Below, one piece after another: positions 1,828 to 61,497 of a DNA stretch of 64,000 nucleotides. The stretch covers positions 2,604,001 through 2,668,000 of the forward strand of contig JABVCE010000002.1 of NCBI GenBank assembly GCA_014905635.1, given 5' to 3'. Made by a program: the position numbers and the translations under genes. The notes below the pieces were generated by a model that ran no database searches, was not told the DNA's origin, and worked only from the letters and a program-made list of their open reading frames with translations. The stretch's first letter is position 1; each line of letters starts with the position of its first letter. The DNA is from Scenedesmus sp. PABB004. Its lineage: Eukaryota.

Positions 1828-3703
1828 ATGGTGCTCGGCCTGCCCGGCGTGTGGGCGGTGATGGCGGGCCTGGCGAGTGGGAAGCGCGTGGAGAGCCTGG
1901 AGCTGCCGGAGATGCCCAACATGCCGTTCTTGTACTGGCTGGCGGTTGCGGGCGCGCTGTGCAAGCCAAAGTGGACCGACGCCAAGGCCTGGCCGGCCCT
2001 CAAGGTGGGCGGGGAGGCGCGGGACCGCCGCAGCACCTAGCCGCAGGCCGCCGCGGCGGCAGCGGCGCGCGGCGCGGCAGCGGCGCGGACGCAGCAGCGG
2101 CAGCGGCGGTTGGCGCTGCCGCGCGGCCGGCGGCGCCTGCCGACCGCGCCGCACGGCCCGGCTGCGGCAGGTCAGCATGACCACGCCCGTCGCGGCCGAG
2201 CCGAAGCGCCTCGCGGCGTACAAGCGCCTCGCGGGCTGGCCCATGCCGGAGGGGCGCGGCGTGCCGTGCTGCTTCATGATGGCCGAGGCCTTCAAGCTGG
2301 TCATGCAGGTGCGGGGCTCAAGGGTTCAGGGGTTGACAGGCCCAGGGCTTAGCCCCTGAGCGCCGGCGCGGCCCGCGGCGCGACGTGCCCGCCGCGCGGC
2401 GCAGGTGATGACGCTGCCGGCCTTCCCCGTGAGCGTGCTGGGCACGGTGGTCAACAAGCGCGCGCGCTACGCGCTGCTGCGCGCCGTGGCGCCGGGCGAG
2501 GCCCTGCTGTACAGGTGCGCGGCGCGGGGCGGGGCGGCAGCGCCCGGCAACGGGCGTGCGCGGCGCCCCGACCCGCGCTCGCGCCGCGGCGCCGCAGCTG
2601 CTCGCTCAACCCCGCGGTGCGCGAGACGTTCAGCGGGCACAAGGAGTTTGACCTGCTGCTGGAGGCGGTGTCCGAGGACAAGGGTGCGGCGCCGCGGCGG
2701 CAGCGGCGGCTGCAGCGGCAGCGGCAGCGGCAGCGGCAGCGGCAGCGGCAGCGGCAGCGGCGGCAGCCGGCGGGCTGCAGGCTCGGCCGCAGCGGCGGTG
2801 GGCCCCGGCCGGCGCGCAGGGGGCGGCGTGCCGAGCCGCCCACGTGCCGCCGTGCGCTGTGCGCGCAGGCGACGTCGTGTGGCAGGCGGTACTGAGCCTG
2901 GTGCTGATGAAGCCGCGCGGCAAGGGCGGCAAGAAGGCACGCGGCGCGGCGCAGCGCGGGGTGGCTGCGCGTCCCCGCGGCTGGCGGCCGACCGGGGCGC
3001 CGCCGCCGCCGCCGCCGCCGCCGCGCAGGAGGGCGGCGCCAAGCCCGGCGCGGGCGAGAAGCCCGCGGGCGACGCGCCCGCGGCCGACGCGCTGGCGCCG
3101 GTCGACAGCTGGGCGCTGCCCGAGAGCACGGGGCGGAGCTACGCGGCGCTGGACGGCGACATCAGCCCCATGCACCTCTGGAAGGCGACAGCCGCGCTCA
3201 TGGGCTTTCCCGCGCCCGTCGCCAACGTGCACCTGCTCGCCGGCCGCACCGAGGCGAGCCTCGCGACCAAGAAGGGTGCGGCGGCGGCGGCGGCGCGGCG
3301 CGGCGACGATGGTGGCGGCGGCGGCGGCGGCGGCGCGGGCCGCGACCGCGGGCCGCGCCCCCTCCCCTCACGCGCCGCACGCGCGCTGCGCTGCACGCGT
3401 GCAGCCGGCGCGGCCGAGCCGGCCGCGCCGTTCTCGCTCGAGCTGGAGTTCAAGAAGCCCACGCTGCTCCCCAACACGCTCAGCCTCTGCGGCGGCGCGA
3501 GCTGGGCCGCCGCCGCGGCCGCGGGTGCGGGGAGCCCGTGGGCGTCGCGCGGCGCGCGGCGCGCGGCGCGGGGGGCGCGCGTGCTGACGCCTGCCGCCCC
3601 CGCACCGCACGCAGGCGGCTACGCGCTGCGCATCGACGACAAGAAGGCCCGGCCCCTGGCCACCGGCAGCGCGAGCAGCAAGGCCAGCCTCACGCGCTTT
3701 TAG
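1828..3703 (+). CDS. MaoC-like / hydroxyacyl-thioester dehydratase type 2 (double hot-dog fold), 8 exons
   Basis: Spliced product contains VMTLPAFPVSVLGTVV, GDVVWQAV, the hydratase-2 motif YAALDGDISPMHL (D-x4-H) and LEFKKPTLLP. Includes a GC-AG intron at 2937. Confidence 0.75.
2695..2766. repeat. (GGCAGC)n intronic microsatellite
   Basis: About 10 tandem hexamer units visible inside an intron of the dehydratase gene. Confidence 0.9.
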
Positions 3704-4146
3704 GCGAGGGGAGGGGCGCGCCGCGCGGCGTGCCCCGCGCTCGCGGGCGCCGCCGCCCCGCGGCGCCGCGGCGTGGCGTGACTGGCGCGGGACGCCCTGC
3801 CCCGAACGGACGCGCGGGTCGTGAAGAGCGGCGGTGCGTTTACGTGATGACGCGCGGCGCCGCGCCGCCCAAACGCTCCCCCGGCGCCCCGGTCGCCCCA
3901 CAAGCCTCCGCGACGCCCGACGCGCCCGCACGCACGCTCAGCGCCCCGCCCGCCTCCCCGCCCGCACCCCGGCCCGCCCGGCCCGCCCGACCTCTCGCGC
4001 CCGCCCCGCGCCCGCGCCGTCTCGCCGCCACGGCTCGCGGCAAGGTGAGGCTGCCGCGAGCGCCCTGGCGCGCTGCCAGAGCGCCGCCGCCCGCGCGGCG
4101 CGTTGCGCACTTGACGACGTCGCAGCTCCGCGCGCCCGCCTCGCAG

Positions 4147-5417: not shown

Positions 5418-8265
5418 TCACGGCCGCAGGTCGGGCAGCACGTCCAGCACCGCGCCCAGCATCGCGCCGCCAAAGCGCTTCGCGCGCTCGGGGCCCCACC
5501 CCGGGCCGGCCGGGTCGCCCGCGTCGGCCGCAGTGAGCTTGAATGGCATCTCCAGCGTGACTGCCAGGCAGTCAAAGCGCTGCGCAATCTGCGGCGCGGC
5601 GGCGTCGGCGCGCCGGCGGCGGCCGCGGCGGCGTCGGCGGCGGCAGCTCGGCGGCGGCGGCGGTGTCGGCACGCGACGCGGCGGCGCGCGGCGCGCCTGG
5701 TTGCTGCAGATGCGCATGTCGGCCTGGCCCGGCGCGTCGACCTCGTAGCCCAGCTTGGTCTGGGCGGCGGCGCGCGGCGGCAGGCGGCGGCAGGGCGGAG
5801 GTGGGCCTCGCGGCCGCGCGCCCCCCCTGGCGGCGCAAACGCCGGTGCCAGCGCCGCACCTGAAAGTCTGGGCTCGCGCGGCTGAACGCGGCGCTGAACT
5901 TGGCTTGCAGCTGCGAGGCGCGGCGTGGGCGGTGCAACCTGGGCGCGGCGGCCGGCGGCGGCGCGCGCGGGGGCGCCCCGCGGCGGCGCGGCTCTCCGCA
6001 CCCCGGCGAGGCGGCCGGTCCAGCCGGGGATGCCCTCGGCGCCGGCGATGAAGCAGGCAGGAATCTCCTCGTCGCCTGGGCGAGCAGGCGCAGGCGGGCG
6101 GGCGGGCGGGCAGGACGTCAGGGCACGCCCGCCGCGCAGCCGCGCCTGCACGCGGGGCGCGGCGCGCCTGCGGCGCAGCGCCGCTGCCGCGCGGGCGTCC
6201 CCCCCCCCTCTCACCGTGGACATCCACCAGCATGTCCACGCCTGCGCGGCGGCGCGGCGGGCGGGGCGGCCGGGCGCAGGCGGGTGGCGCCAGCGCCAGC
6301 GGCGGCGGCGGCGCGGCCACGCCACCCCCGCCTGAGGCCGCCCGGCCCGAGGGCGCGCCGCGCCGCTGCTGCCGCCGCCGCTGCCTGCGTGCCAGCTGCT
6401 GTCGCCGCCGCCGCCGCCGCTGCCTGCCTGCCAGCTGCTGCCGCCGCGGCAGGTGCTGCCGCCGCCGCAGGTGCCGCCGCCGCGGCAGGTGCTGCCGCCG
6501 CCGCACCGGTGTCATCCATGAGGCGGCGTATGTGGAAGACCTCGGGCGCCTCGTCCTCGCGCGGCGCGTCCCACGCGCGGTTCAGGTTGACGCCCGCCGC
6601 GTTGGTCCGCAGGTGCCCGCGCCACGTGCCGTCGGGGCACGCGCTGCGCGACGGCGCCGGCGCCGGCGCCGGCGCGGGCAGCGGGGTGAGCGCGCGCGCA
6701 GTCCGGCGCGGCCGGAGGGTTCAAACCGCGCGGCCGCGCCTAAACCGCGCGCGCACTTCGGCACAACGTAGAACACCGCGCCGTCGAGCAGCGCGCGGCT
6801 GACCGCGTCGTGCGGGTCGGTGAGCCGCTCCAGCAGGCCCTCCGCAAACCACTCGCTCTGCGTCTCGCCTGCGGCGGGGCCGCGCGCGGCGCGCGTGGGC
6901 GGCGGCGCGGCGGGCGCGAGGGGGCCCGCGCGGCGGGCGCGCAGCGGGCAGCGTCGAGCGCACGGCTGGCGCCCCTGCTGCTCGCTGCGCGCCTGGATGC
7001 TGGCGCGCGACGATCCACACAACGCGCTTGCCCGGCCCCGGCTCGCCGAGCATGAGGACGTCGAGGTCGTGGCCATCGAGCGTCTCGGCCAGCATCACCA
7101 GCCGCACGCGTGGCCGCGTCTGCGCGGCGTGCAGGCACGCGGACGCGTCGGCGCGCGGGCGCGCGGGCGCGTGGGCCCTGCGCTCCGGCCCGCCGCCCAC
7201 TGCGCCGCGCCCGCGCCCTGCGCCGCCGCGCCCCCGCCCTGCGCCGCCCACGGCCATGCGCCGCGCCCGCGCCTGCATGCGCGACACGAGCAGCATGTGG
7301 CGGTGGAAGTTGTAGACGGGGAAATAGGAGTACCTGATGGAGTCAGCGCCGGGCGTGTGGCGAATCGTGAGCACACCCGTGGCGGCGTCGTAGGCCGTTG
7401 GCACGCGGAACCAGGCGTCGAGGTCGTGGCTCGCGCACGCGGCGTAGCCCTCCCACGCGGCCGGGTAGCTGCAGGCGCCCGCGTTGGTGATGTGGAGAGT
7501 GAGCGGCACGCCGCGCGCGCCGGTGACGCGAAAGTTGAACCACTGCGCGTGAGCAGTCGCGTCGGTCTCGCAGTAGGGGTCCTTGATGATCGCCAGGCGC
7601 ACGTCCCCCGGGTCGGACAGGTCCAGCACCTGTCGACGAGCGGCGCGGCGCAGCGCGCGGCAGCGGCGCGGCGGCGTGGCGGCGGCGCGGCACGCGGCGG
7701 CGGCGCAGGCGCGGCGGCGGCGGCCCAGAGGTGGCGGGGTTTAGGCGGCCCAGAGGTGGCGGGCATGCGGCGGCGGCCCAGAGGTGGCGGCGCGGCGTGC
7801 GGCGGCGGCCCAGGGGCGGCGGCGGCGGGCCAGAATCACCTCGATGTTGCCGCTGTCAAAGTGGGAGTTGACCCCGAGGCCGCCGCTGCCGCGCGCCGCC
7901 GCGCTCGGCGACGCGCTGCCGGCCGCCCACCTGCGGCCGCGGCGGCGGCGGCGGCGGCGGCGCGCGCGCGTGGTCGGCCGCCGTCGCGCGAGCGCGCCGG
8001 CTGGCGCGGCGATCGGCCGCCGCCGCCGCGACCGCCGCGGCGCCGCCGCGCACGCGCACCGCTCCGCGGAGCCCGTCGAGCGCACGGCCACGCCCCGCCG
8101 GCGCGACGAGCTCGCCATGCGCCTGAGCGCTGACGTGGCGGCTGGGCAGCGGTGGGGGCCGCTGTGGGGCTGCTGCAGCGGGGCGGCGACCGCGCGCCGC
8201 TGCTGCTGCTGCACCGCTGCCGCCGCGCCCGCCAGCCACGGACGGCCGCCGCGGAGCAGCGCCAT
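5418..8265 (-). CDS. M14 zinc carboxypeptidase, cytosolic-carboxypeptidase (CCP/M14D) type, with a putative transit peptide
   Basis: Motifs FDSGNIE, QWFNFRV, ARQHP|GE (Zn HxxE), [24 protein letters not shown] (third Zn His) and TLEMPFK (catalytic Glu). N-terminus is Arg/Ser/Ala-rich. Confidence 0.9.
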
Positions 8266-8631: not shown

Positions 8632-10617
8632 ATGCGCTGCCTGCAGAGCCACACGCGCCGGCCGGCGGGGCCCAACGCCCTGTCCGCCGCGCCCTGCGGC
8701 GGCCGCGTACCTCGCAGCGCCTTCGCGCCGCCCGCGGGGCGGGCGCGCGAGGCGCTGCGGGCTCGGGTGCTCGTCAGCCCGGAGGCCGCGCCCGCCAGCC
8801 CGGCGCAGCCCGCCCGGCCGGCCCCCGCGGACCTGCTGGGGCGCATCGCGTCGCCGGTGGTGGAGGACATGGCGACGATGAACCGGAACCTCCGGTCCAT
8901 CGTGGGCGAGCGGCACCCGATGCTCATGGCAGCAGCAGACCAGATTTTCGGCGCGGGCGGCAAGAAGCTGCGGCCCATGATCGTCTTCCTGGTCGCCCGC
9001 GCCACCGCCGAGCTGGCGGGCATGGAGTGCGTGGCCGCCGCGCGGCGCGCGCCGCGGCGCGGCGCGCCGCTGCCGCCACCACACGTTGCCGCGCGGCCGC
9101 GGGCGCGGCGCGGCGCGGCGCGCGCCGCCGCGCCCGGCCGCCCGCGCCGGCCGCGCCCCGGGCACGCGGCGCGCGGCGGCCGCGCCGCCAGCGCAGGCAG
9201 CGCGCCGGCAGCGGCGCGGCGCGACTCGTGCCGCACGCCGCGCGCTGCTCTCGGCTCGCCGACGCCGCCCGTCCCCGCCCTCGCCCCCCCCCTCCCTCCC
9301 CGCGCCGCAGCGAGATCACGGAGCGCCACCGGCGGCTGGCCGAGATCATTGAGATGATCCACACCGCCAGCCTGGTGCACGACGACGTGCTCGACGACTG
9401 CGCTGTGCGCCGCGGTGCGTGTGCTCGCGCGCCCGCCCGCCCGCCCGCGCGCCGGCCTGCTGGCCTGCTCCGCTGCTGCCCCGCTCCCGTGCTGCGGCGG
9501 CCACGGTTGCGCGCCGGCGGTGTGGGGAGCTCACCTGCAGCCCCGCCGCCGCGCTGACTCAGGCAAGGACACGGTCAACACGCTGTATGGCAGCCGCGTC
9601 GCGGTGCTGGTCGGGGACTACCTCTTTGCCCAGGCCTCATGGCTCATCGCCAACCTGGAGAACCTGGAGGTGCGCGCTGGTGGCACGCGCGCCGCGCCTC
9701 GCCGGCCGCGCGGCCGCCCCCGCCCGGCAGCGCGCGCCTCCTGCCCACCCCTCGTCTCCCTGTCCTCCGCCCACCCGCCCCGTCCCTCCCGCCCGCCCAC
9801 CCTCCCTCGCCTCCCTCCCTCACTCTGCCATCAATCAACCACCCCACCACCCACCCAACCAACCACCCAACCACCCAACCAACCACCGCCAGGTCATCAA
9901 GCTCATCTCCAAGGTCATCGCCGACTTTGCCAACGGCGAGATCAGCCAGGCGAGCAGCCTCTTTGACACGGGCGTCAGCCTCGAGGCCTACCTCGACAAG
10001 TCCTTCTACAAGACCGCCAGCCTCATCGCCGCGAGCTGCCGCAGCAGCGCCGCGTTCAGCGGGATGCCGGAGGAGAGCAAGGCAGCGATGTACGACTACG
10101 GCAAGCACCTGGGGCTCGCCTTCCAGGCGCGGAGAGGCGCGGCACCGCCTGGTCGCGCCGCGCTGGCGCGGCGGCGCGGCGTGACGTTGCGCAGCGCACG
10201 CGCGCCCTGCCGCCGCGCCTCACGCGCGCGCCGCTCCCGCCTGCCCCCCGCCTGCCCCACGCCGCCCCGGGCGCCGCGCAGGTGGTGGACGACATCCTCG
10301 ATTTCACGCAGAGCAGCGAGCAGCTGGGCAAGCCGCAGGGGCAGGACCTCGCGAGCGGCAACCTCACCGCGCCGGTCATCTTCGCGCTGCGGTCCAGCCC
10401 CGAGCTGGAGGCGCTGATCCAGAGCGAGTTCACCGAGGACGGGTCGCTGCAGGCGGCGCTCGGGCTGGTGCACGGCGCGGGCGGCATCGAGGCGGCGCGC
10501 GCGCTCGCGGAGGAGCAGGGGCAGCTCGCGCGCGCGGCGCTGCGCGGCCTCGCCGACTGCCCCGCGAAGCGCAGCCTCGAGCTCATGGTCGACTATGTGC
10601 TCGAACGCATCCACTGA
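8632..10617 (+). CDS. SPS: Solanesyl diphosphate synthase (plastid trans-long-chain prenyl-PP synthase), 5 exons
   Basis: Motifs [22 protein letters not shown] (FARM), [38 protein letters not shown] (SARM) and GNLTAP. Transit-peptide-like N-terminus. Confidence 0.95.
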
Positions 10618-11277: not shown

Positions 11278-11303
11278 GAACTCTCGCTTCCTCGCGTGTC
11301 CGC

Positions 11304-24931: not shown

Positions 24932-27900
24932 TCAGCGCTTGTGCTGGCTCCGGATGATGGCCGCCAGCTCGGGGTGGCTCTCCTCGCTCAGCCCCGGCGG
25001 CACGAGGCTCACGCCCCACACGCTGCCGCCCTTCTTGGTACTCGCCTGCAGCGTGTCGGCCACCCACTCGCCGTGGCGCCCCGCGCGCAGGTGCTGCTCC
25101 GGCTCCAGCCGCGCCTGCTCCGAGTCTGCGGCGCGGCGGCCGCCGGGGCAGCCGGGGCGGTGGGCCGGGGCGGTGGGCCGCGGCGCGCCGCAGAGTGCGC
25201 ACGCGTGGCGCCGGCGCGCCCGTGAGGCGGCGCACCCGCGTGGTGGGGCAGGCGCTGCGCGCCGATGCGGCTCGCGTCGAGTCGCTGCCCGGGGTCGGGC
25301 TGCAGGTGCTGCCACTGCCGCGAGATGCTCGCCGGGCTGCCCAGGTGCTTGGCCAGCAGCGGGCTGAGCGAGCCGCCCGGCGGCGAGTGATGCTCGCCCG
25401 GCGCGGCAGGCGGGGGCGCCGCGAGGGCCTGCGCGCGCGCCAGCCGGCGGCAGGCCGCGGGGCGGCCGCGTGAGCGCACGCGCGCGCGCGCCCGCCCGCC
25501 CGCCCGCCGCCGCACGCGCGCCGCACGCACCGCCGCGCGGCGGCGCTCCAGGTGCGCCTGGTGCTCCGCCACCTCGCGCTCGAGCAGCTCCCGCAGCAGC
25601 TGCGGCGCCTGCGGCGGCGGCCCGCCGGGCGCAACGTCCAGCGGCTGCGCGGCGGGGCGGGGCGGGGCGGGGGTCAGCGGGGCGGAGTCGCGCGCCGCAG
25701 CCGCGCCGCCGCTGCGCCGCCGCCGCGCGGCCCCGCGCCGCGCCGCGCCTGCTCGTCCGCGCTGCTCAGCAGCGCCGCCATGTCGGCCTCCAGCGCGGCG
25801 AGCGCGGCGGCGGGGTCGTCCAGCTCGTAGTAGTGCTGCCCGCTGGCGCTCGTGGCGATGAGGCGCCGCGCCGCCTGCAGCCCCGCGGCGACGTCGCACG
25901 CCGACGCGGCGTTGCCGGCGCGCCCCATGCCGCCGCGCGCCGCCGGCGGCAGCGGCGGCAGGCTCGCGGCCGCCGGCGGCGGCGACGCCGCCGCGCCGGG
26001 CGCCGCGGGCGCGCCGCCGCTGCGCGCGGCGCCGTCCTCGCAGTCCATCGCGTCGCCGCCACCGCCGCCGCCGCCGGGCGGCCCCTCGCCGGGCGCGGGC
26101 GCGTCGCCGAGCCCCGCGGGCGGGCTGTCCATGCTGACGCTGCGGCCGCGCTTGAGCACCGAGCCGCCGCCCGCGCGCGGCGCGTCGCCGTCGCCGTCGT
26201 CCATCGCCGCGTTGCCGCCCGGCGGCGGCGCCGCGAGCGCCGCGCCGCTGACCGCGCCGTTGACGCCCACGATCGCCCCCAGCTCCGCGGCGCCGGCGGG
26301 GCCCAGGCCTGCGCGCCGCGCGCGGGGGCGGGCAGCGCCGGTTCTGGGGCGCCCGCCCGCTGGCGCCGCCGCGCCCCTGCGCCGCGCCCCCAAACCCTAA
26401 ACCAGCAAGCCTAAACCCTCCCCACAACAGCAGCACCCCGCCCCACCCACCGCGCAGCACGTCCTCAAAGTACTCGTGCGCCATCGCCTCCTCGCTGCCG
26501 CAGCGCCGCACGGGGTCGAAGCTCAGCAGGCGGGCGAGCAGGTCCACGGCCACCTCCCCCGCAGCGCCAAAGCGGCGGAACAGGCTCGGCGCGCTGCGCG
26601 CCGGCAGCGGCGCGGCGGCGTCGGCGGCGCGGGCGCGGCGCGGCGGCGTTGGCGACGTGTGCGCGCGGCGCGGGCGCGGGCGCCGGCGGCGGCCACGGCG
26701 CGGGCGGGGGCGCGGCGCACCGGCCCGGCATGCGCCGCAGGTAGCGCCGCCACGCCGGCGCGTCGACCGCCTCGATGCAGCGCCAGCTGGGCGTGCCGAT
26801 CACGGCAAACAGCGCGTCCAGCTCTGCGCAGCGGTCGGTTAGGGCGGCGGTTCAGCGCCCGCGGCGGCTGAGCGCCGGCTCGGCCGCGGACGCGCGCCGC
26901 CCCGCGCCGCGCCCCGGCGCCGCACCCGTGCGCGTGATGGAGTTGCCGGGGCCGCCGCCCGCGTAGCGCTCGCCCTCCCCGGGGTGACAGGCATGCCGTG
27001 GATGGCAAACACGGGGCCAACCTGCGCCCCGTGCCGGCGGCGGGCGGGCGGCGCGGTCGGCGCCGGCGGCGGTGGTGCTGCGGCGCGCCGCGTGCGCGGC
27101 GGCGCGGCGGTGGCAGCGGCGCGCGCGGCGCGGCCGCGCCTGCAGCTGCGGCGTCGTGGCCTTGCCGATCCACGCGACGCGCTGGAGCAGCTCCCCGAGC
27201 ACGCAGCCGAGGCCCCACATGTCGATGGCCTCGGTGTAGTGCCCCCGCGACATGACCACCTCCGGCGCGCGGTAGCACGGCGTGCACACCATGCGCGTCA
27301 GCGGGCTCTTGAAGCCGCCGCCGCCGCCCGCGACCGGCCTGCGGCGGCGGGCGCGGCGCGCGGGTGGGCGGGCGAGCGGCGCGCCGGCGACGTGGCGCCG
27401 GGCGGTGGCGCGCGCGTGGGCGGGCGGGCCGCGCGGCCGGCCTGCTCACCGCGCATAGAGGTCGCTGGGGCTGCTGCCCGCGCCCAGTGCGTCGTAGCTG
27501 TCCGTGCGCGCCACGGGCGGCCCGCCCGGCGACGCGGTGCGGTGCGGCTTGCCCCTGGCGGCACCGGGCGACGCCTTGCGCCCGCCCGCCGCGTCGCAGG
27601 CGCCGAGCGAGTCGGTGGAGTCGTGCCGCGCGTGCCGCCTGGCGGGGCTGCCCTGCGCCGGCGCCGCCTGCGCCTGCGCCGCCTGCGGGGCCTGCTGCGC
27701 CGCCGCCGCGCCGTCGCCGCCGCCGTCCATGCTGTGCGGGGGCCGCTGCGCGCCCGCCGCGCCCGCCGCGGTGCTCGCGGCGAGCGTCTTCTCCAGCAGC
27801 GTGCTCCGCGCGCTGCCCAGGTCCGCCAGCTTGACGTGCCTGGGGCGCGCGGCCGAGGCGAGGCGTGCGCTCGGCAGCTGCGCGGCGGCCCTCCGTCCGC

Positions 27901-37506: not shown

Positions 37507-37774
37507 CTTGCCGCCGCTGGCTCCTGCTGCGGCCGGGCAGGCTGCTGCGATGCGTGCGGGGCGGGGCGAGCGAGAGGTAATGCACTTGCGCCTGTCGTGG
37601 ATGCGCAGGTAAAAGCGGCGGGCAGCGGGGCAGCCGCGGTGCTGCGGCGCCAGGGTCCAGCAGTGGGCGCCGCCGAGGCACCAGCTGACCCTGGCTGGCC
37701 ACGGCAATCCTGCCGTGTTCCGAGCGCCGAAAACTGGCACAGAGCGGCGCACACGGCGGTGGCGAGCACTGCCG

Positions 37775-40700
37775 TCACCGCGGCGGCGCGCCGCGCCAGT
37801 TGAAGCCGCCCGGCCGCGACGTCCCGCTGACCCCGCTCCAGCTGGAGATGTGGCTGTTGCCGCTGGCGCTGCCGGCAAGGTGCCGGCTGCGCGTGCGGCG
37901 CTTTTCGGCCGCCGCGTGCAGGATGTCGCCCGCGCAAACGTCCACGTCGCACAGCGCGTGCACGCGCAGCTGGCCGTACGGCTGCTCCGGCGTCGCCACC
38001 ATCGCCTCACGCGCCTTGGCCTTGCAGCCCTGCGGACAGGGGGGAGCGGGGCGCTGCTGGCGGCCGCCGGGGGCGGTCGCGCGGCGCCGCGACCGCCGCG
38101 ACCGCCGCACCTGCAGCACCAGGGCAGCCAGGCCGCCGCCCAGCTCCGCCGCGGCGCCGTCCGGCTGCTGGATGGGCGCACCGCCGCCAGGCGGCTCCGG
38201 CGAGCCGCTCCGGCTGCGCGCGCCGTGCGCGCCCTGCGCGCGCCAGCCGCCCGCGTCGCCGCTGTGCTGCGACGCCAGGGGCTGCTGGCGCTGCTGCGGC
38301 TGCGGCTGCTCGCGGTGCCGGGCGCTGCTGCTGCGCCGCTGCTGCCCCTGCTGCTGCTGCTCCTGCTGCGGCTGGAGGTACAGGCCGTCGCGCAGCGGCT
38401 TGGGCGGCCGCGCGGCGGCGCCGCCCGCGTCCTGCCAGGTGCCCGGGCGGTCCAGGTCCCAGCCGTGCTCGCCCAGGCGCCCCACCAGGCCGCCGTCGAG
38501 CGTCCACAGCGCCACGGCGGCGTCGCGCCCCGCGCTGACGACGAGCGGCTGGATGACGCCCGGCGCGGGCGACGCAGCGGTGCCGCCGGCCGTGGAGCTC
38601 GACGTTGGCCGCGCCGGCACCAGGTCCACGCTCGTCACCGCGCCGTCGTGCGCCAGCCAGTGCGCGCGCTGCCGGGCGCGGCAGCACGGCAGCATGGGCG
38701 GGCGCGCGTCGGGGCGGCGGCCGCCAGCGCGGTGCGCGCGGCGGCGCGCCGCGGCGACGGCGCAGCGCGCACCTGCTTGAAGCTGGCCGCCGCGGCCTCG
38801 GCGCTGCTGGTGTCGATGCCCGCGGCGACGTCAAACACGCGCAGGTGGCCGCCGCTGTCCCCCAGCACCACCACGGTCGCGCCGCCGTCCACGCCCGCCG
38901 CGGACACCACGTCCAGCAGGCTGTTCGCGCCTGGCGGGCAGAGCTCAGCGCGGCGCCGGACGGTGAGCCCGGCTCACACGTCCGGCGCGTCTGCGCTGCG
39001 GCGGCGGTGCCCCGGCGCAGGCGCGAGCTCGCGCCGGCTCACCCGGGAGCATGCAGAGCATGGCACCCTGCGCAAGGTGGTTGATGCTCCACACACGCAC
39101 AAGGCCATCGCCGCCGGCCGAGAGCAGGAGCAGCGCGTCAGGCTCCTCCTGTGCCTCCTCCTCGGCCTCCGCCGGCTCGCGGCCGCTGACGGGCTGCTGC
39201 CCCAGCCCGCCGCCAGGCTCGCCTGCCGCGCCGTCCAGCTGCTGCGCGCCGTGCAGCCCGCACTCCGCCGCCCCCCCCGACGTGCTGGGCACCTCGGACC
39301 CCAGCACCAAGCTCGGCTGCTCCTGCTGGTCGGCTGCAGGCTCGCCGTCGCCGGCAAAAAAGCCCTCCGCGCTGCTCGCCGCCGCCGCCCCGGCGCGCTC
39401 CGTGGCTGCCGCGGCCGCGTCCGCCGCCGCGGCGCGCTCTGCGGCCGCGTCTGCCGCCGCTGCGCGCTGCGCGGGGCTGAACGCCGGGACCCACAGCAGC
39501 CGCTCCACGCTCGTCTCGTAGCGCTCCGCACTGCGGCGCGCGGCGACCGGTCAACGGCCGGCCAGGCGAGCCGGGCGCCGCGCGTGCGCCCGTGCGCGTG
39601 GCCTCGCACCGGTGGCTGAGCCACGACTTGCGCTCCCCGGTGAAAAGGCCCCACACCACGATGTGGCCCTGGTAGTCGCCTGGTGCCAGCAGTAGGGGCG
39701 GGCCGTCGGCACCAGGCCCCCGGCTCCCCGGCGCCGCGCGGGGGGAGCCCGGCTGCGCCGCAGCGCAGCGCGTCGCGCGCGCACCCGTGGCGAGCAGGCC
39801 GCGGCGCGCGTGCGCGGCCATGGCGGTGACGTCCTCGCGGTGCCCCTCCAGCGCCTTGTACGTGCTCACGCGCTCGCCCTCCGTGTCCTCCCACACAAAC
39901 ACCTTGGTGTTCCAGCCCGCCGCGAAGAGCGTGTCGGCGCCGCGCTTGTCGTCGCGCGCAAACAGCACCTCGCACACCTCCAGCGGCGCCTGGTTGTGCA
40001 CAAAGCTGCCGCGGCGGGGGCGGCGCCGACCCGGCTGGGTGCACGGCGGCCGCGGGGGCCCTCTGCCTCCACAGCCACGCGCCCGCCGCACCTGCGCAGG
40101 CGCGCGCCGTTGTGAAAGTTGTACATGTGAATGCTGCCGTCGTTGGCCGCCGTCACGAGGCGGCGCTGGCGCTTGTCAAAGGTCAGCGCCGTCACGCGGC
40201 TCCCGCCGTGGTCGCCCGCAAAGCGGCCCACGCGCGCCCCGTCCTGCAGCGCCGGCGCCGGCGGCGGCAGCGGCGGCGGCGGCGGCCGTTGGACGCGGCG
40301 GCGCCGGCAGGCCGCGCGCCGGCAGGCCGCGCGGCTGGCGCTGCGCGGCAGGGCGCGGCGCGCGAGCGCGCGCGCGCGCCTGCAGGTTCCACACGCACGC
40401 CGTGCCGCCCTCGTCGACGCTGACCACCACCGCAAAGGTGGCGTTGAACAGCGCGCCGCGCACGGGCTCGCGGTGCCCGGTGCGGTCCGCGCTCGTGACC
40501 TTGTGCTGCCACGCGCAGGGCCGGAGCGCCGCGGTCACGAGCCGCCTCCGCGTGCTGTCGTACGCCATGCACGTCGGCGCGGAGTCCTCGGCGCGCGACC
40601 AGTCGTCCTGCGCGCCGCGGCGGCGTGGCGGGCGCGCTCGCCCCGCGGCGACTAGCCGGCCAAGCCTGCCGCGGGCCTGCCGCGCGCCGCGCACCGCGCC

Positions 40701-42507
40701 GCGCGCGCCGCACCGGCGTCATGGTCTGCAGGCAGCGGTGGTTGCGCAGGTCCCAGAGCTTGATGGTGTGGTCGGTGCTGAGCGTGAAGACGTGGTTGGT
40801 CCCCGCGTCGAGGCTGATGTGCGCCACGCTGCTCGTGTGCCCGCGCAGCTCCCCGATCTTGCGCCCCGTCGTGCCCTGCGCGCGCGCGGGGCGGGCGGGC
40901 CAAGGCGGGATCGGGGCGGCAGCAGGCCGAGGGGCCCGTTGGCCGCGCAGGCCCGCCGCCGGCCCGCCGCCCCCGCGGCTCACGTGCCACACGATCACGT
41001 CGCGCTCGAGGCCGGCCGAGGCGAAGCACGAGTACGCGGCGCACCACACCCACCCGCGCACGCCCTTGGCGTGGTGCCGGCACACGTGGCTCACGCGCTC
41101 GCGGTTGATGTCGTACGTCTGCACCGTGCCGTCGAGGCTGCTGCTCACGAGCCCGACCTCGGGGACCCACCCGATCTGGGTGACCCAGTCGCTGTGCGCG
41201 GTGTGGAGGTAGATGTAGTCCTGCGCGCGCGCGTGTGTGTGTGTGGGGGGGGGGGCGGTGAGTGTGTGTGTGTGTGTGTGTGGGGGGGGGGGGTGTTGGG
41301 TGTGTGTGAGGGAAGGGACCGCGAACGAGGGCGGCAGCGAGGGAGAAAGGGCGGCGCGCGCGGCCGCGCCTTGTGGTGCTGCGTGGCGATGAGGTCGCGC
41401 GCGGGCATCTCGCGGCTGCCGCAGAGCAGCAGCACAGCCGCGCCGCGCGAGTCGCCGTACACCACGCGCTCGCCCGCGTCGCCGGCGAGCACTGCGAGGC
41501 AGAGCGGCACGCCCATGCCGCCGCACGCGTAGACGCGGCCGGTGAGGTCGTACGCGCCGCGGTGGGTGTCATAGTAGGTGAGCGCGCGGTCCATGCTCGC
41601 CGCAACGAGCTTGCGGCTCCCGGGCAGGTACAGCGCGTCGGTCAGCCAGGCGGCGCCGTTGGCGAGCGTGCGCGCGTGCGAGAGGTCGCCGCCGTTCCAC
41701 AGGCGCAGGCTGCCGTCGCGGCCGAGGCTGACGACCTTGTCGATCGGGGCGCAGTAGAACACGCGGTCAACCTGCAGCGGCGGCGGCGTGTGAGTGTGTG
41801 TGTGTGAGTGTGAGTGTGTGAGTGTGAGTGGGTGGGTGTGAGTGTGTGTGTGTGGGGGGGGGGGTGGGGTGGGGGGCGGGCAGGGAGTGCGCGGTGGGCG
41901 GCGGGCGGCGGTGGCGGGCCGGCGCACGCGCCGCGCTGCCGGCGCGCCGCGCCACCGCGCCGCCGCCGCCGCGCCTGGTCGTGGTGCGCCGCCGCGGCCT
42001 CGCCCTTGGCGCGCGGCCGGGGCGCGTCCGGGAAGAGCCGCCACTCGGCGCCGCTCGGCTCGCCGCCGCCGGCCTGGGCGCGCTCCAAGTACATGTAGGA
42101 CGTGAATTCATCCCTGGAGCCCCCCGCCACGGCACACAGCGGTTGCAGCGGCGGCGGCGGCGGCGGCGGCGCCGCGGCGGCGGCGCGGCGGCGGCGCGGC
42201 GTGGCGCGGCGCGGCGCGCCGCGCACCAGTCGACGGTGCCGCCGGCGTCGGCGTCGATCTTCAGGAACAGCTGCGCGACCTGCGCCCGCTTGAGCCCGAC
42301 GCCGAGGTGGGGCCCCAGCTTGGCGCAGAACTCGTCGATGTCGAGCTCGCCGCTGCCGTCCTCGTCCGCCTCCTGCGGTCGGTCGGCGCGGCCGGTCGGC
42401 GGCGCGGCCCGTGCCGCGCCGCTGCTGCTGCCAGCGCGGCGCACCTCGAAGATGCGCTTCAGCGTCTTGAGGCTCTCCAAGTTGATCTCGTCGTCCCCGT
42501 CCGCCAT
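37775..42507 (-). CDS. EF-hand plus WD40-repeat protein (WDR49/WDY/EFCAB8-type, ciliary family)
   Basis: Paired EF-hands DEDGSGELDIDEF and DADAGGTVDW|DEF, followed by many WD repeats (HSDWV, GHTSSV..IKLWD, GHREDV, HDGAV..VALWT). Confidence 0.85.
41788..41853. repeat. (GT)n/(GTGTGA)n intronic microsatellite; a similar tract lies at 41233-41310
   Basis: Visible TG/GA dinucleotide runs flanked by poly-G. Confidence 0.85.
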
Positions 42508-44756: not shown

Positions 44757-46027
44757 TCACACGTCCTTGGACGCAATCCATTTGACCTCCTTCGCCAGCA
44801 CCGCTCGCTGCTGCTTCAGCGCCGACAGCTTGACAGCGGCCTGTGCGTGCGCGGCCGCGGGCGGCGCGGCACTGTCGCTGCGCGGCGCCGGGCGCGGGCG
44901 CGGGGATCTGCGCGGCGGCAGGCGGCGCCGCCGCGCCCCGCGGCCGCACCTCGCTGCGCAGCTCGGTCACGCGCGCGCTCGCGCGCATGCTGCGCAGGTC
45001 GTCCAGCACGGCGTTGGTCAGCCGCTGCGACTTGGCGACGCTCGACTCGAGGCGCTGCAGCTCCTGCCGCGCCGCCCTGCGCGCCGCCGCGAACCGGGGG
45101 GCGCCCGCCCGCGTCAGCGGCCGGCCGGCCGGCGGGAGGGGCCGGCGCCCGCCGCGCGCCCGCCGCGCGCCGCGCACGCTCGCGCCCGCGCGCCGCCGCC
45201 GCCGCCGGGCCAGCCTCACTTAAGCTTCTGATAGCCCCGTGTCATCTCCTCGTACGCGTGCGCCGCGCGCTCCTGGAGCTTCTTGCTCTCCGCCGCAAAC
45301 TCGTCGGCCTTGGCGCCGATGGTCGACAGCTTGGCCTCCGCGCCCGCGAGCACCGCGTCGGGGTTGCGCAGCCGCCCCAGCGTCAGCCGGTACACCATGC
45401 GCCGCGCGCCTGCGGGCGGGCGCGGCGGGCGCAGCGGGCGTGGGCGCGCGCGCGCGCGTGGGGCGCGCCGTCGGGCGGCGCGGCGCGGCGCGGCGGCGGC
45501 GGCGCGCCCGGGCGCGCACCCGGCACCGCCGCGATCAGCAGCGTCGCGGCCGCGGGGTAGGAGATGTAGGGGTGGTGCACGGCGTACGAGATGCCCTCTG
45601 CGCGCACCGTGGCCGGCGGCGGCGGCGGCGGCGGCGGTGAGCGCGCGGCGCTCCGCAGCAGCGGCGCCGGCCTGTTTTGGCTTGCCTTTGAGCTTGGCAA
45701 ACGCCTCGTCCTGCAGAGCCTCGCCCTGCGCCAGCGTGGCCTCGCCGTGCGCCTGCGGGCGCGGGGGAAGGGGGGATGGCTCCGCTTCCATCTGCTGCTG
45801 CTCCCCGGCGCGCCCGCGCTCGCCAGGGCCCCCAGCGACGCCGACGGCCGCGAGCGCGGCCGCCGCCGCACCTTGGCCACGCCCCACACGCCGCAGGCCC
45901 ACTCCAGCGCCGCCGAGGCCTGCGCCGTCGCCGCGCCGACTGTCTTCTTCACGCCTCCCGCCGCCGCGCTGCCGAGCTCGTCGAGCTTGGCCTCCGCCTT
46001 CTCCGCCAGCTCCTTCGCGGATTCCAT
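44757..46027 (-). CDS. RHIP1: RGS1-HXK1-interacting protein 1-like, 6 exons
   Basis: Spliced product QDEAFAKLK|EGISYAVHHP...GARRMVYRLTLGRLRN...ESKKLQERAAHAYEEMTRG resembles plant RHIP1 (TM plus coiled coil). Confidence 0.7.
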
Positions 46028-46445: not shown

Positions 46446-48151
46446 TCAGCCGACGCGCAGGCGACGCGTCGTGCGCGCGACGAAGCCGCCCTTGATGGCC
46501 TGCACGGTGCGGCTCGCGCCGCACTGCTGGCAGCGCAGGTGCATCAGGCGCGTCGCGCTGTCCTTGTCCAGCAGCGTGTCGACGCTCTTGCAGCCCGGGC
46601 ACAGCACGTACCTGCCGCGGTGGCGGCGGCGGCGGCGGCGTGGGCGGCGCGAGGCGGCGGGGCGCGGGCGCGGCGGGCCGCGGGCGCCGCGCGGGCGCGG
46701 GCGCGGGCGCGGCGGGCCGTAAGCGCGGGCGCGAGGCGGTGCGGGTGGGCGCACTCGTTGACGTAGCGGCGCAGCACGGTCTCGAACGACTTGGGCAGGA
46801 AGCGGCCCTTGCACACGAGGCGGGCCTGGCCGTCGAGCGAGCCGCTCGTGCCGAGCTCGGCGAGCAGGAAGGCGCTCACGTGCTCGCTGTTGCGGTTCAT
46901 CGCCTTGCAGAGGTCGGTGAAGTTGGTGAACACGGTCTTCTTGGTGCCCTCGCGCGCGACCTGGCCGCGGCGGCGAGGTGCCAGGCGCGGGGCGGATGGG
47001 GTGACGCGTGACGAGCAAGAGGGAGGAGGGAGGGCGGGGCGCGCAGGCGGGGCCCGGGGGCGGGTGTGTGCATGCGCGCGCGCGGCCGCCGCCGCCGCAC
47101 CTGGGGCGGCTTGAGCACCGTGCGGCGGCGCTCGCCCGTGAGCTCGGGGTTGCGCTCGCGCAGGATGCCAAACACGCGGTCTGCGGCACCCGCGGCAGCG
47201 GCGAGGCGGTGGCGGCGCGGGGAGGGGCGGGTCAGCGACGCCCGCCGCCGCGGGCGCACCGGGCGCTGCGCCGCGCGCGCGCGCGCGCGCGGGAGGGAGG
47301 GCGGGACGCCGGGCGCGCGCGCGCGCGCGCGGGGCGCACCCAGCAGCTCGTCGTAGGTGTACTCGCGGTCGGTGTTGGACCACGCAAACTTGCCGCCCTG
47401 CTCCGCCTCGCCGCGCTCCGCCGCCTCCGCCTCGGCCTCGGGGTCGTCGTCCGCAAACTCGTCCGCGCGCGCCTGCGCACGCGAGGCGGCGCGCGCGCGT
47501 CGGGCGGCGTGCCCCGGCGGGCGGCCGCCGCCGCGCTCCGCCGCGCCCCTGCTCCCGCGCCGCGCCCCGCAGCTGCGCCGCCACCGCGCTGCTCCGCCGC
47601 GCCCCCCGCTGCTGCCGCCGCGCCTTTTTCTTCTTCTTCTTCTTCTTGAGCGAGAGGTCTAGCAGGTCCTCGCCCTCCTCCTCCGCGCCCGCGGTGCCCG
47701 CCGCGTCGTCGCCGTCGGCCTGCGCCCGCGGCGCGCGCCGAGGAGGAGCGGCGGCGGCCGCCGCGTCGGCGGGCGCCCTCCCCGGCGCCATGCCCGCGCG
47801 CCCCGGGGCGCGCCCAGGCGCGGCGCAGGCGCGGCGGGCGCCGCCGGGCGGGGGCGCGCCCCGGCGGCGCCGCGGCGGCCGTCCATCACTCGCGCGGCAG
47901 CGGCCGCGCCGCGCCGCGCCGCCCGGCGCGCCCCGGGCCGCACCGCGGGCTCCTTCTTCTTCTTTTTCTTCTTGAGCCCCAGGTCCAGCCCCAGCTCGCC
48001 GTCGCCCTCCACTGCGCCGGCCGGGGCGGGGCGGCAGCAGCAGCGCGCTCGCCTCGCCCGCCCCGCGCCGCCGCGCGCGCGCGCCGCGCCCCGCCGCGGG
48101 CGCCGCCGCGCCTGCGAGCCCGTCCAGCTTCTCCGCCAGCTCCTCAGCCAT
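46446..48151 (-). CDS. EIF2S2: Eukaryotic translation initiation factor 2 subunit beta
   Basis: Poly-Lys boxes, [40 protein letters not shown] and a C2-C2 zinc ribbon (CPGC..CQQC). Confidence 0.97.
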
Positions 48152-52368: not shown

Positions 52369-52563
52369 CACTTTCTGCGTCTGACGAGGAGCACGGACGC
52401 ACGCCGCCGCCAGCGCAACGAGGCGATCGGCAGAGTTGTTAGCGCCGAGCAGCGGCGCGCGCGGCGCGGCGGGCCGCCGCGCCGCGCCGGCGCGGAGGCG
52501 GGCCGCGGGCGCCCGGGTGCTGTCAGGCCGTGACGTCCCGGGCGCGGTGGCGCCAGCGGAGAG

Positions 52564-57936: not shown

Positions 57937-57972
<36 letters not shown>

Positions 57973-59034: not shown

Positions 59035-59091
59035 CGGCCGGCCAGCCTGTGCGTTGTTGAAACGCGACGCCCCCGTGCGGCGCGCCGCCGG

Positions 59092-61497
59092 TCAGCCGCC
59101 GCGCGCCGCCGCCGCGGCCGCCGCGGCCGCCGCCTCTGCCGCGGCCGCCGCCTCTGCCGCGTCGGCCGCCGCGTCGGCGACGTCCGCCGCCGCCGCGTCG
59201 AGCTGCGCCTCGCTGCGCTCGAGGTAGGACAGAACCTCCGCCATGCGCGCCCTGCGCCGCAAAAGGGGGCGGCGCGGTGTGAGCCCACCCGCGCCGCGGC
59301 GCGCGGGCTGGGCCACCGCGCCAAACGCGCGCGCCTGTGCCGCGCCTCCTGCCACTCGCTGTGCTCGTCGGCGAGCGCGGCCGCGGCCGCGAGCTCGCGC
59401 GCGACCAGGCGGTCCTCCAGGCCGTCCAGAACCGCGACGTGCGCCTCGTGCGACGACGCCAGCGCGCTCAGCAGCGCGTCCTTGTCGCCCAGCAGCGCGC
59501 CGGCCTCCTCCGGCAGCGCCTCGAGCTCGGGGTTGTCCGCCGCCGCGCCGTAGCGCTCGAGGTGCGCCGGCGCCGCGGCCGTGAGCGCCGCCGTGAACGT
59601 GGTCTGCAGGTCGCGCACCTGCCGCGGCCGCGGGCCGGCGGGCGGCGGGCGGCGTGGGCGGCACGCACAAAGGCGGCTGGGCCTCCATCCCACACGCGCG
59701 CGCGCACTCGTGCGGCACGCGGCGCGCCGCACCTGTGTGAAGTAGGCGTTGTACTGCAGCTTGGCCGCCTCGGCCGCCTCGCTCGCGGCGCGATCGCGCT
59801 CGGCCACGAGGCCGGCCACCACCTCGGCAGCGTCGTCCTCCAGCGCCAGCAGCGCCTCGCGCAGCGCCGCCAGCCGCGCCTTGGCGCCCAGCACCGCCTC
59901 CTCCGTCTCCGCCGGCGCCTCGCTCACCGCGCGCAGCGCGCCCTTGGCGCCGCGGCCGTACGCTGCGATGAGCGCCCGCGCCTCGCCTTCGCGCTCGCCC
60001 AGCGCGGCCGCGAGCGCGGACTCAAACGCGGCACTCTCGGCCTTCTTGCGCGCCGCGCCGTCCAGGATGACCAGCTGCGCGGTGCGGACGGCGCGCGCTC
60101 GGCAGGGTGACGGCGGCGGCCGCCGCGCGCGCGCCCGGCCACCCCCCACGCGCCCCGCGCGCGGCGGCCCCTGCGCGCCGCGCCTTGAACTCGTCCGTCG
60201 CGACCTGCCACCTGTCGCGCAGCTCGTTCCACGGCTCCAGCAGCCCCGGCACCGCGGAGAGCTTGCCCCACTCTGGGTCGGCGGCGGCCATGTCCTCCAG
60301 CAGCGACTCCACGCCTGCAGCAGCGGCGGCGCGCGCGAGACGGCACCGACCGCACGTCAGCGCGGCGGCGGCAGGCTGCGTGGCTGCGTGCGGGCCCCCC
60401 TCCCTGCCGCAGCGCACCGTTGAGGTTGGCGTCGGCCATCGCGGCCGCGTGCGTGGCGCGCTCCGCCGCTGCCGCGGCCTCGGCGTCCGCCGCGTCGGCG
60501 CGCTCGCGCAGCTCCGCGACCTCGTCCTGGTGCGCCTCCGCCGCGGCGGCGCGGTCGGCCCGCGTCACGCGGCGGTAATCCAGGTAGGCCAGGCGGGGCA
60601 GGGTGGCGAGTGTGAGGCTGCGGTACGCCGCCGCGTCGGCCGCGAGCGGGTTGCCGGCGAGGCTCAGCAGCTGCAGGCGCGGCAGGCGCGTGAGGTACGA
60701 CACCGCGCCCAGGCGCGGCAGCGCGTTGCAGCCTGCGCGCCGCGCGCGGGGGGTGTGGGGCGGGCGTGGGTGCCGGCGCGGGGGCGCGTGCTGCGGGCGG
60801 CGGCGGGCGGGCGCGCGGCGCGGCGCGCGGCGCGGGGCGCGCGCACCGAGGGAGAGCACGTTGAGCCGTGTGAGGCCGTCGAGGCCCTCCAGCGTGGTGA
60901 TGGCGTTGGCGTGGAGCGAGAGGTCGGCGAGGCGCGTGAGGGGGGAGAGGCCCTGTATCGCGGGGATGGCGTTGAACGACAGGTCCAGCCACGTCAGACC
61001 GGTCTGCGGCGGCGGGAGCGCGGCACGAGGGGAACGGGCGAGCACGTGCGCGAGGGGGGTGGAGGCATGGCGCGCGCGCGGCTGCTGCGGCGTCGGCGAG
61101 CGGCCGTGCCGGGCTGTGGCTGCCGCGCGCGGCGCGCGCACGAGGTGGCTGAGGTTTTCGATGCGGCCGATGTGGTTGTTGTCGAGCTGCAGCTTGACGA
61201 GGCCGGCGAGGCCGTCCAGGTTGTGGATGCGAGCGAGGCGGCGGAAGCTCAGGCTCGCCGCCTCCACCGCGCCAAAGGCCATCGACCGCCGCTTCTCCTC
61301 CGCCAGCTCCGGGTCGCCGCCGACCTGCGCGGCGGCGCGGGCGCCGTCGCGCGTGGCGTGCGGCGCAGCGACCCCGCAGCCGCCAGCAGCGGCCGCGCCG
61401 CCGCCGGCCGCCGCACCACGATGCACTCGCGGATGAGCTCGTCTGTCACCACCGCGTCCTCGCGCTCCTCGACCAGCCGCTCCAGGGACGGCGCCAT
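59092..61497 (-). CDS. DRC3: Dynein regulatory complex subunit 3 (LRRC48)
   Basis: LIRECI, SDS22-like LRRs (LQLDNNHIGRIENLSHL|TGLTWLDLSFN), LAGNP..Y...LPRLAYLDYR cap and a C-terminal coiled coil (SHEAH..LDGLED). Confidence 0.88.

What the first reader, a model, noticed from the sequence alone, without database searches (positions are those of the whole stretch)
2937..60183. Exceptionally frequent GC-AG introns (at least 16, over 10% of introns)
Seen: frame-preserving splices in conserved proteins use GC donors at +2937, +10127, +32163 and at -5696, -6992, -7272, -27139, -28367, -36948, -40379, -41369, -41974, -45685, -47623, -59334, -60183. All have exonic AG at -2/-1 (AG|GCGCG or AG|GCA). 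My rough hand count is about 110-125 introns in total. Established: GC donors are usually around 1% of introns. Inference: extreme GC pressure has reshaped 5' splice-site recognition, perhaps through variant U1/U6 snRNAs or reliance on the exonic AG.
Basis: partly seen in the sequence, partly recalled or inferred. Interest (0 to 1): 0.7.

Follow-up and report, generated by a model that had tools for sequence, protein, structure and literature searches.

The report
Frequent GC-AG introns in high-GC alga
In this extremely GC-rich green-algal DNA, roughly one intron in eight starts with GC instead of the usual GT; this is real, but the same effect is already known from other very GC-rich algae.

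Summary
All 16 sites read AG|GC. For 13 of 16, splicing exactly at the GC donor restores an unbroken match to orthologues, Pfam profiles, a solved structure or a relative's uninterrupted gene. Three sites (+2937, -45685, -59334) could not be tested by homology. A gene model of my own gives 118 introns, 102 GT and 16 GC, or 13.6%.

One exon is 100% identical to an NCBI protein named Scenedesmus sp. PABB004. A paper lists that genome at 78.5% GC.

GC donors always carry exonic AG (16/16, against 38/102 GT donors). They match the U1-type consensus as well as GT donors do (6.06 against 6.08 of 9 positions). At two positions relatives have GT where the window has GC. This fits T-to-C drift at position +2, tolerated where the rest of the site is strong.

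Variant U1/U6 snRNAs are untested and not needed. GC-AG abundance in GC-rich algae is in print for Emiliania (56% of curated junctions) and pelagophytes (14-17%). This is a new member of a known kind. No RNA evidence and no whole genome were available.

The parts
2937..3028 (+). GC-AG intron candidate (92 nt), AAG|GCACGC...GCGCAG, in a MaoC-like gene; not verified by homology
   Evidence: Motif; intron limits; marginal model support 5.6 nats; in-phase GT alternatives at -36 and +24
5589..5696 (-). GC-AG intron (108 nt) in the cytosolic-carboxypeptidase-like gene; verified
   Evidence: Four homologues read TNQ|VAQ without the 36-residue insert that the public annotation keeps
6869..6992 (-). 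GC-AG intron (124 nt, phase 1) splitting the HPGE zinc motif; verified
   Evidence: ARQHPG|ETQ matches ARQHPGET in four homologues; the public annotation uses this GC donor; no in-phase GT alternative
7120..7272 (-). GC-AG intron (153 nt) in the carboxypeptidase-like gene; verified, in a weakly conserved stretch
   Evidence: Length matches 3 of 4 homologues exactly; the fourth has a 1-residue gap; the public annotation uses this GC donor
10127..10281 (+). GC-AG intron (155 nt) in the polyprenyl diphosphate synthase gene; verified
   Evidence: Joins [14 protein letters not shown]; Pfam PF00348 positions 183|184 are contiguous
27022..27139 (-). GC-AG intron in a protein kinase gene; donor verified, acceptor revised to GCGCAG|GTTGGC (118 nt instead of 165)
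   Evidence: Orthologues continue PQLQ|VAPLFA; the window encodes VGPVFAIHG directly after this acceptor
28243..28367 (-). GC-AG intron (125 nt) in the same kinase gene; verified
   Evidence: EFAGQ|GDLFHMRGQ aligns without indel to seven orthologues
32163..32746 (+). GC-AG intron (584 nt) in a ubiquitin-conjugating (E2) gene; verified
   Evidence: Pfam PF00179 positions 69|70 are contiguous across KVKCKTK|VYHPNIDL
36796..36948 (-). GC-AG intron (153 nt, phase 1) in the cyanase gene, followed by a 22-nt exon; verified
   Evidence: Pfam PF02560 positions 29, then 8 residues, then 38; the spliced model reproduces the annotated C-terminus
40244..40379 (-). GC-AG intron (136 nt) in the EF-hand/WD40 gene; verified
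   Evidence: Restores VWNLQ, present in two orthologues and missing from the public annotation
41221..41369 (-). GC-AG intron (149 nt) in the EF-hand/WD40 gene; verified
   Evidence: Restores 22 conserved residues; two relatives' read-through ORFs show V-R-A (GTN CGN GCN) at the same position
41772..41974 (-). GC-AG intron (203 nt) in the EF-hand/WD40 gene; verified
   Evidence: Restores a 47-residue exon present in two orthologues and skipped by the public annotation
45598..45685 (-). GC-AG intron candidate (88 nt), AAG|GCAAGC, in a coiled-coil gene of unknown family; not verified by homology
   Evidence: 14.9 nats marginal support; no in-phase GT alternative with this acceptor
47473..47623 (-). 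GC-AG intron (151 nt) after the second lysine block of eIF2-beta; verified
   Evidence: Loci L001 and L006 encode KKKK-ARAD(D/E)F without interruption
59252..59334 (-). GC-AG intron candidate (83 nt) before the last exon of the DRC3-like gene; not verified
   Evidence: The upstream exon aligns to DRC3 up to one residue before the donor; the last exon has no PDB match; 7.2 nats
60075..60183 (-). GC-AG intron (109 nt) in the DRC3-like gene; verified
   Evidence: Flanking exons align to 8glv_Em residues 247-288 and 291-402, with two query residues covering 289-290

Best explanation
These are ordinary major-spliceosome (U2-type) introns whose donor dinucleotide is GC instead of GT. They are unusually common, about 11-14% of introns in this window. 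The DNA belongs to a green alga of the Scenedesmus group with about 78% GC. Proposed mechanism (inferred): a strong GC-ward mutation or fixation bias repeatedly turns the T at intron position +2 into C. The change survives only where the rest of the splice site is strong enough for U1 pairing, meaning exonic A-2 and G-1 with G+1, G/A+3 and G+5, plus a GCAG acceptor. GC donors therefore pile up in that subset. No altered snRNA is required. Shown here: the exact junctions at 13 sites, the compensating consensus, and GT at the same position in relatives for two introns. Inferred: the direction of change, the genome-wide rate, and actual splicing at the RNA level.
For: 1. Junctions fixed by homology at 13 of 16 sites.
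2. The public annotation of the same genome already uses GC donors at -7272 and -6992 and -36948.
3. GC and GT donors share one consensus apart from +2. GT donors read (A)G|GTGCG and GC donors read AG|GCGCG.
4. Compensation. AG at -2/-1 occurs in 16/16 GC donors against 38/102 GT donors. G at +5 occurs in 16/16 against 91/102. The flank-only donor score averages 4.11 against 2.73 (p = 4e-4). A GCAG acceptor occurs in 16/16 against 80/102 (p = 0.04). Matches to MAG|GTRAGT average 6.06 against 6.08 of 9.
5. Relatives have GT at the same intron position. After ...THK, read-through ORFs P0004 and P0005 continue V-R-A. After ...PQLQ, P0014 continues V-R-R and resumes with VGPVFAIHG 66 residues later.
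6. Where a GT-only gene model fails, the failures sit at these very sites. Decoy-donor introns mostly overlap the claimed introns (14 of 20 for CG). My model at a 3-nat penalty recovers 15 of the 16 claimed sites on its own.
7. Published parallels tie GC-AG abundance to genomic GC content (passages read).
Against: There is no RNA evidence: no RNA run was listed, so splicing is inferred from protein conservation only.

Three sites are unverified.

The denominator (118 introns) comes from my own ab initio model, which makes errors. All 5 of its extra GC calls that could be tested were false (-39597, -7830, -8844, +9400, +32921). It also missed one carboxypeptidase exon and merged two genes.

Ab initio modelling alone cannot tell GC from decoy dinucleotides (39 CG 'introns' against 39 GC at zero penalty).

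One 64-kb window out of a 39.8-Mb genome may not be typical.

The direction of the GT/GC change was not polarised with an outgroup.
Confidence: 0.82

Rival explanations
1. The spliceosome itself has changed: variant U1 and/or U6 snRNAs in this alga recognise GC donors directly.
For: Nothing direct. GT donors here also depart from the textbook GTAAGT (consensus GTGCG, with C at +4 in 67/102), so some relaxation of donor recognition is conceivable.
Against: No snRNA gene is in the window and no genome is held, so this is untested. GC donors show the classical compensation and the same number of matches to the standard consensus as GT donors. That is what an unchanged U1 predicts. AGGTGCG is used as a donor in 25/30 sense occurrences but AGGCGCG in only 13/43, so GT remains the better donor.
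Confidence: 0.08
2. The window is atypical. GC-AG introns are real here, but the genome-wide share is much lower (below about 5%).
For: Only 64 kb was examined. The 16 sites cluster in 11 genes, while other genes have none (ABC transporter 9 GT introns, RIC1-like 11 GT introns).
Against: The sites are spread over the whole window (2.9-60.2 kb) on both strands and in unrelated genes. The window's GC content (78-79%) equals the published genome mean (78.5%). If the true rate were 2%, 13 or more in 118 would be very improbable (my estimate from the binomial interval).
Confidence: 0.1
3. The AG|GC motifs are chance matches or T-to-C assembly errors, and the true donors are nearby GT sites.
For: AGGC is frequent (370 sense occurrences). 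My model accepts decoy dinucleotides readily. In-phase GT alternatives exist near 11 of 16 sites. A probable assembly frameshift lies 118 nt from one site.
Against: At 13 sites any GT alternative would insert or delete conserved residues relative to homologues. Five sites have no in-phase GT with the same acceptor. Base errors falling exactly at +2 of 16 introns are implausible. This remains possible only for +2937, -45685 and -59334.
Confidence: 0.03

Closest known systems
Ordinary U2-type GC-AG introns of plants and animals
   Same: GC donor, AG acceptor, excision in frame, and a strengthened consensus at the other donor positions.
   Different: Frequency. A preprint passage cites 0.3-2% for plants and metazoans, and GT-AG makes up 97.9% of plant splice sites (PMC7072748, passages). 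Here the share is 11-14% in one window.
Emiliania huxleyi (haptophyte, 65% GC)
   Same: Abundant GC-AG junctions, attributed by the authors to high genomic GC. Gene predictors that prefer GT mis-model them (PMC4028052, passages). Here the public annotation likewise mis-models 4 of 7 GC sites examined.
   Different: 56% of 241 curated junctions there against about 13% here, even though this genome is more GC-rich. The lineage is different (Chlorophyta). Nine of their GC junctions were verified by RT-PCR; none were verified at RNA level here.
Pelagophytes Aureococcus anophagefferens and Pelagomonas calceolata
   Same: About 14-17% and about 14% predicted GC-AG introns, short introns, and an effect attributed to high GC. 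A lower-GC relative has 0.32% (bioRxiv 10.1101/2024.10.30.620910, passage).
   Different: They are stramenopiles with few introns per gene (0.1-0.9). This green alga has roughly 4-5 introns per gene in the window (118 introns, about 25 gene models).

Membership tests
U2-type GC-AG intron | GC at intron positions +1/+2 and AG at the 3' end | tested here: met
   16/16 donors. 16/16 acceptors end in GCAG once the -27139 acceptor is revised.
U2-type GC-AG intron | Removal at exactly these bases restores a conserved, continuous protein | tested here: met
   13 of 16 sites. The other 3 could not be tested by homology.
U2-type GC-AG intron | Near-consensus remaining donor positions (exonic AG, purine at +3, G at +5) | tested here: met
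   -2A 16/16, -1G 16/16, +3 G/A 16/16, +5G 16/16.
U2-type GC-AG intron | Not U12-type (no ATCCTT-like donor box; this motif is recalled, not from a call) | tested here: met
   The donor sequences listed read GCGCG(G/C), GCACGC or GCAAGC. None contains TCCTT.
U2-type GC-AG intron | Spliced junction observed in RNA | not testable with these tools
   No RNA run was listed, so read laying could not be used.
GC-AG enrichment of very GC-rich algal genomes (Emiliania / pelagophyte type) | Genome GC of at least about 65% | tested here: met
   The window is 78-79% GC. The genome is listed at 78.5% in PMC12571836 (table passage).
GC-AG enrichment of very GC-rich algal genomes (Emiliania / pelagophyte type) | GC-AG share an order of magnitude above 1%, genome-wide | tested here: inconclusive
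   16/118 in the window, or 13/118 verified. No whole genome is held.
Altered U1/U6 snRNA recognition | Changed U1 5' end or U6 ACAGA box | not testable with these tools
   No snRNA in the window and no genome.

The most novel reading that the evidence does not exclude
This may be the first green-lineage (Viridiplantae) genome in which GC-AG introns exceed 10% genome-wide. If so, the shift to GC donors has arisen independently in a third algal lineage, after haptophytes and pelagophytes. The window has 118 introns in about 25 gene models, and the published gene count is 7,092. That extrapolates to several thousand GC-AG introns. The public annotation mis-models 4 of the 7 I could examine, so a sizeable part of the reference proteome would carry wrong deletions, insertions or skipped exons. 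Co-evolved snRNA changes are not excluded.
Probability: 0.55. Interest if true: 0.5.

Novelty: new member of a known kind. Interest (0 to 1): 0.35.

Why it matters
It adds a chlorophyte, and the most GC-rich case so far, to the short list of eukaryotes in which GC donors are common. That strengthens the view that base-composition pressure can erode even the near-invariant GT of introns as long as the rest of the site compensates.

Close relatives at about 57% GC keep GT at the same intron positions. The Scenedesmus group therefore offers matched GT/GC intron pairs for studying 5' splice-site tolerance.

In practice, gene prediction for this genome and similar ones must allow GC donors. In the two public gene models I could map, four GC-AG introns were replaced by exon skipping, truncated exons or intron retention.

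Tried and rejected
- **RNA evidence.** The look-up of sequencing runs listed no RNA holder (one search was a length slip), so read laying was never usable.
- **Whole genome.** None is held, so there is no genome-wide table and no U1/U6 search. Rfam on the window found nothing.
- **Ab initio modelling as proof.** I rejected this. Any decoy dinucleotide gave many 'introns' (CG 39, CC 30, GG 28 against GC 39 at zero penalty). It became useful only once I saw that the decoys mostly rescue the same introns.
- **Unconstrained first model.** It called mostly GC donors and merged genes, and self-training without strand territories drifted. I replaced it with strand territories.
- **-59334.** The PDB search with the last DRC3 exon found nothing, so this site stays open.
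- **Short exons.** Pfam on single short exons gave no hits for the genes around +2937, -45685 and -47623.
- **Literature.** Searches for GC-AG together with green algae, Chlamydomonas or Scenedesmus found no report for this lineage. The two 'Scenedesmus' hits are unrelated cyanobacterial papers (listing only). The Sphaeropleales comparison paper holds no occurrence of 'GC-AG', 'splice' or 'intron'. Subscription journals and supplements were not searched.
- **Earlier scan notes.** The search of earlier findings returned only Ostreococcus notes, which have no bearing here.
Full report
**What the window is.** The window is 78-79% GC throughout, apart from a 70-74% stretch at 16-24 kb. Pfam scans of all stop-to-stop ORFs of at least 100 residues show an intron-rich eukaryotic gene set. 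It includes TRM1, a cytosolic-carboxypeptidase-like gene, a polyprenyl synthase, an ABC transporter, two kinases, an E2, cyanase, an EF-hand/WD40 protein, eIF2-beta, RIC1, an LRR protein and an FHA protein. Codons in Pfam-supported segments are 96.6% GC at the third position and 46% at the second. One exon is 100% identical to an NCBI protein named 'hypothetical protein HT031_001449 [Scenedesmus sp. PABB004]'. A comparative paper lists that genome at 39.8 Mb, 78.5% GC and 7,092 genes (PMC12571836, table and text passages). No whole genome is held for the window and no RNA run was listed.

**The observation.** All 16 coordinates show exonic AG followed by GC: 13 read AG|GCGCG and 3 read AG|GCA. 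This motif is frequent by chance (370 AGGC and 43 AGGCGCG on the sense strand of gene territories). Motif and frame alone are therefore not evidence.

I built a small gene finder with a 3-periodic Markov coding model, donor and acceptor weight matrices and strand territories.
- With GT donors only it finds 116 introns. The donor consensus is (A)G|GTGCG and the acceptor consensus is GCAG|G.
- When GC donors are allowed at a 3-nat penalty it recovers 15 of the 16 claimed sites on its own. At zero penalty it recovers 16 of 16.
- A control weakens this: any decoy dinucleotide also yields many 'introns' (CG 39, CC 30, GG 28 against GC 39 at zero penalty; 20, 17, 15 against 22 at 3 nats).
- The decoy introns mostly overlap the claimed GC introns (CG 14/20, CA 12/18, CC 9/17, GG 9/15).

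So the model is really saying that an intron is needed at about 16 places where no usable GT exists. It does not say which dinucleotide is used. That has to come from homology.

**Homology evidence, site by site.**
- *EF-hand/WD40 gene.* With GC donors at -41974, -41369 and -40379 the protein gains 47, 22 and 5 residues. These align residue for residue with two orthologues, one named Tetradesmus obliquus and one from EukProt. The public annotation of this genome lacks all three stretches and uses GT sites instead.
- *Carboxypeptidase-like gene.* -6992 splits the zinc motif as ARQHPG|ETQ, against ARQHPGET in four homologues. -7272 gives the same length as three of four homologues. -5696 removes exactly the 36 residues that the annotation retains and the homologues lack. 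The annotation itself uses GC donors at -7272 and -6992.
- *Polyprenyl synthase.* +10127 joins LGLAFQ to VVDDILDF, with Pfam positions 183|184 contiguous.
- *E2.* +32163 gives Pfam positions 69|70 contiguous.
- *Cyanase.* -36948 fits Pfam positions 29, then 8 residues (a split codon plus a 22-nt exon), then 38. The spliced model reproduces the annotated C-terminus.
- *DRC3-like gene.* The exons flanking -60183 align to chain 8glv_Em at residues 247-288 and 291-402. Two query residues cover 289-290.
- *Kinase.* -28367 gives EFAGQ|GDLFH, which aligns without indel to seven orthologues. At -27139 the donor is right, since orthologues continue PQLQ|VAPLFA. The acceptor in my model (at 26975; the finding names only the donor) is wrong. 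The window encodes VGPVFAIHGMPVTPG directly after a GCGCAG acceptor 118 nt downstream of the donor.
- *eIF2-beta.* The junction [14 protein letters not shown] at -47623 matches uninterrupted [14 protein letters not shown] and KKKKKARAEFDE in two related metagenome contigs, L001 and L006.

That makes 13 of 16 verified. +2937, -45685 and -59334 sit in weakly conserved regions, and a PDB search with the last DRC3 exon found nothing. Their marginal model support is 5.6, 14.9 and 7.2 nats, within the range of the verified sites (2.7-29.7). I rate them as probable.

By contrast, all five of my model's additional GC calls that could be tested were false: -39597, -7830, -8844, +9400 and +32921.

**Frequency.** With the 16 sites allowed, the model has 118 introns, 102 GT and 16 GC, or 13.6% (95% CI 8-21%). 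Counting verified sites only gives 13/118 = 11% (CI 6-18%). The denominator is approximate, because the model missed one carboxypeptidase exon and merged two genes.

**How it works.**
- GC and GT donors share one consensus apart from position +2.
- GC donors are uniformly strong elsewhere: -2A and -1G in 16/16 (AG in 38/102 GT donors; Fisher p = 9e-7, or 1e-5 for the 13 verified sites alone), and +5G in 16/16 against 91/102.
- The flank-only donor score averages 4.11 against 2.73 (p = 4e-4).
- A GCAG acceptor occurs in 16/16 against 80/102 (p = 0.04).
- Matches to the standard MAG|GTRAGT pattern are equal: 6.06 for GC donors against 6.08 for GT donors, out of 9. The lost +2 pair is offset mainly by the exonic A.
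- GT is still the better donor. AGGTGCG is used in 25/30 sense occurrences and AGGCGCG in 13/43.
- Relatives keep GT at the same positions. Read-through ORFs P0004 and P0005 continue V-R-A after ...THK, where the window has A-R-P. P0014 continues V-R-R after PQLQ and resumes with VGPVFAIHG 66 residues later.

I infer T-to-C change at +2 under GC pressure, tolerated by an unchanged U2-type spliceosome at otherwise strong sites. Variant U1/U6 snRNAs are untested and nothing here requires them.

**Comparison with what is known.**
- A bioRxiv preprint (10.1101/2024.10.30.620910, passage read) reports about 14-17% GC-AG in Aureococcus and about 14% in Pelagomonas. It gives 0.32% for a lower-GC relative and cites 0.3-2% for plants and metazoans and 4% for Cyanidioschyzon. 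The authors attribute the high values to genomic GC content.
- Feldmesser et al. 2014 (PMC4028052, passages) found 56% GC-AG among 241 curated Emiliania junctions, again attributed to GC content. They noted that GT-biased predictors mis-model such junctions.
- Frey and Pucker 2020 (PMC7072748, passages) report GT-AG at 97.9% in plants and a positive correlation between genomic and splice-site GC content.
- My searches found no report for Scenedesmus or other green algae. Subscription literature and supplements were not covered.

**Verdict.** This is a new member of a known kind, of moderate interest. Its practical side is that the public annotation handled 3 of the 7 GC sites I could map correctly and mis-modelled 4.

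Noticed in passing
window 36430-42507 (-): The public protein P0001 (1269 aa) fuses the EF-hand/WD40 gene with the downstream cyanase gene. The Tetradesmus orthologue ends before the cyanase part. P0001 also keeps a 24-residue intron read-through after ...KRIFE, besides the three mis-modelled GC introns.
   Followed up: partly
window 26975-27021 (-): A 47-nt segment encoding VGPVFAIHGMPVTPG, which is conserved in orthologues, is out of frame with the following GERYAGGGPG exon. This looks like a 1-nt indel in a G run (assembly error?) or a damaged gene.
   Followed up: partly
window 15935-21100 (-): The ABC-transporter gene lies in the only lower-GC stretch (about 70%). It has 9 introns, all GT, and by far the strongest coding signal in the window.
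   Followed up: no
window 5418-8118 (-): The carboxypeptidase-like gene's closest database relatives, apart from its own annotation, are 372-375-residue proteins at 48-56% identity; two of the four are named 'murein tripeptide amidase MpaA' by JGI, the other two are unnamed. They look bacterial, yet the gene carries about 10 spliceosomal introns.
   Followed up: no
L001:2300-17500: A 76.7%-GC metagenome contig carries RIC1-like, eIF2-beta and FHA genes, and a homologue of the window gene at 51465-52628, in partial synteny with the window. Its eIF2-beta (residues 81-248) and FHA regions are uninterrupted where the window has introns.
   Followed up: partly
window 41370-41771 (-) compared with P0004: A relative's read-through ORF shows an extra intron inside this exon (between ...YYDITR and GSYDLIGRVYA) that the window lacks. 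This is an intron presence/absence difference between close relatives.
   Followed up: no
window 41221-41369 and 41772-41974 (-): The introns flanking this exon contain (CA)n and (CACG)-like simple repeats, which translate as HTHTHT, next to the GCGCAG acceptor.
   Followed up: no
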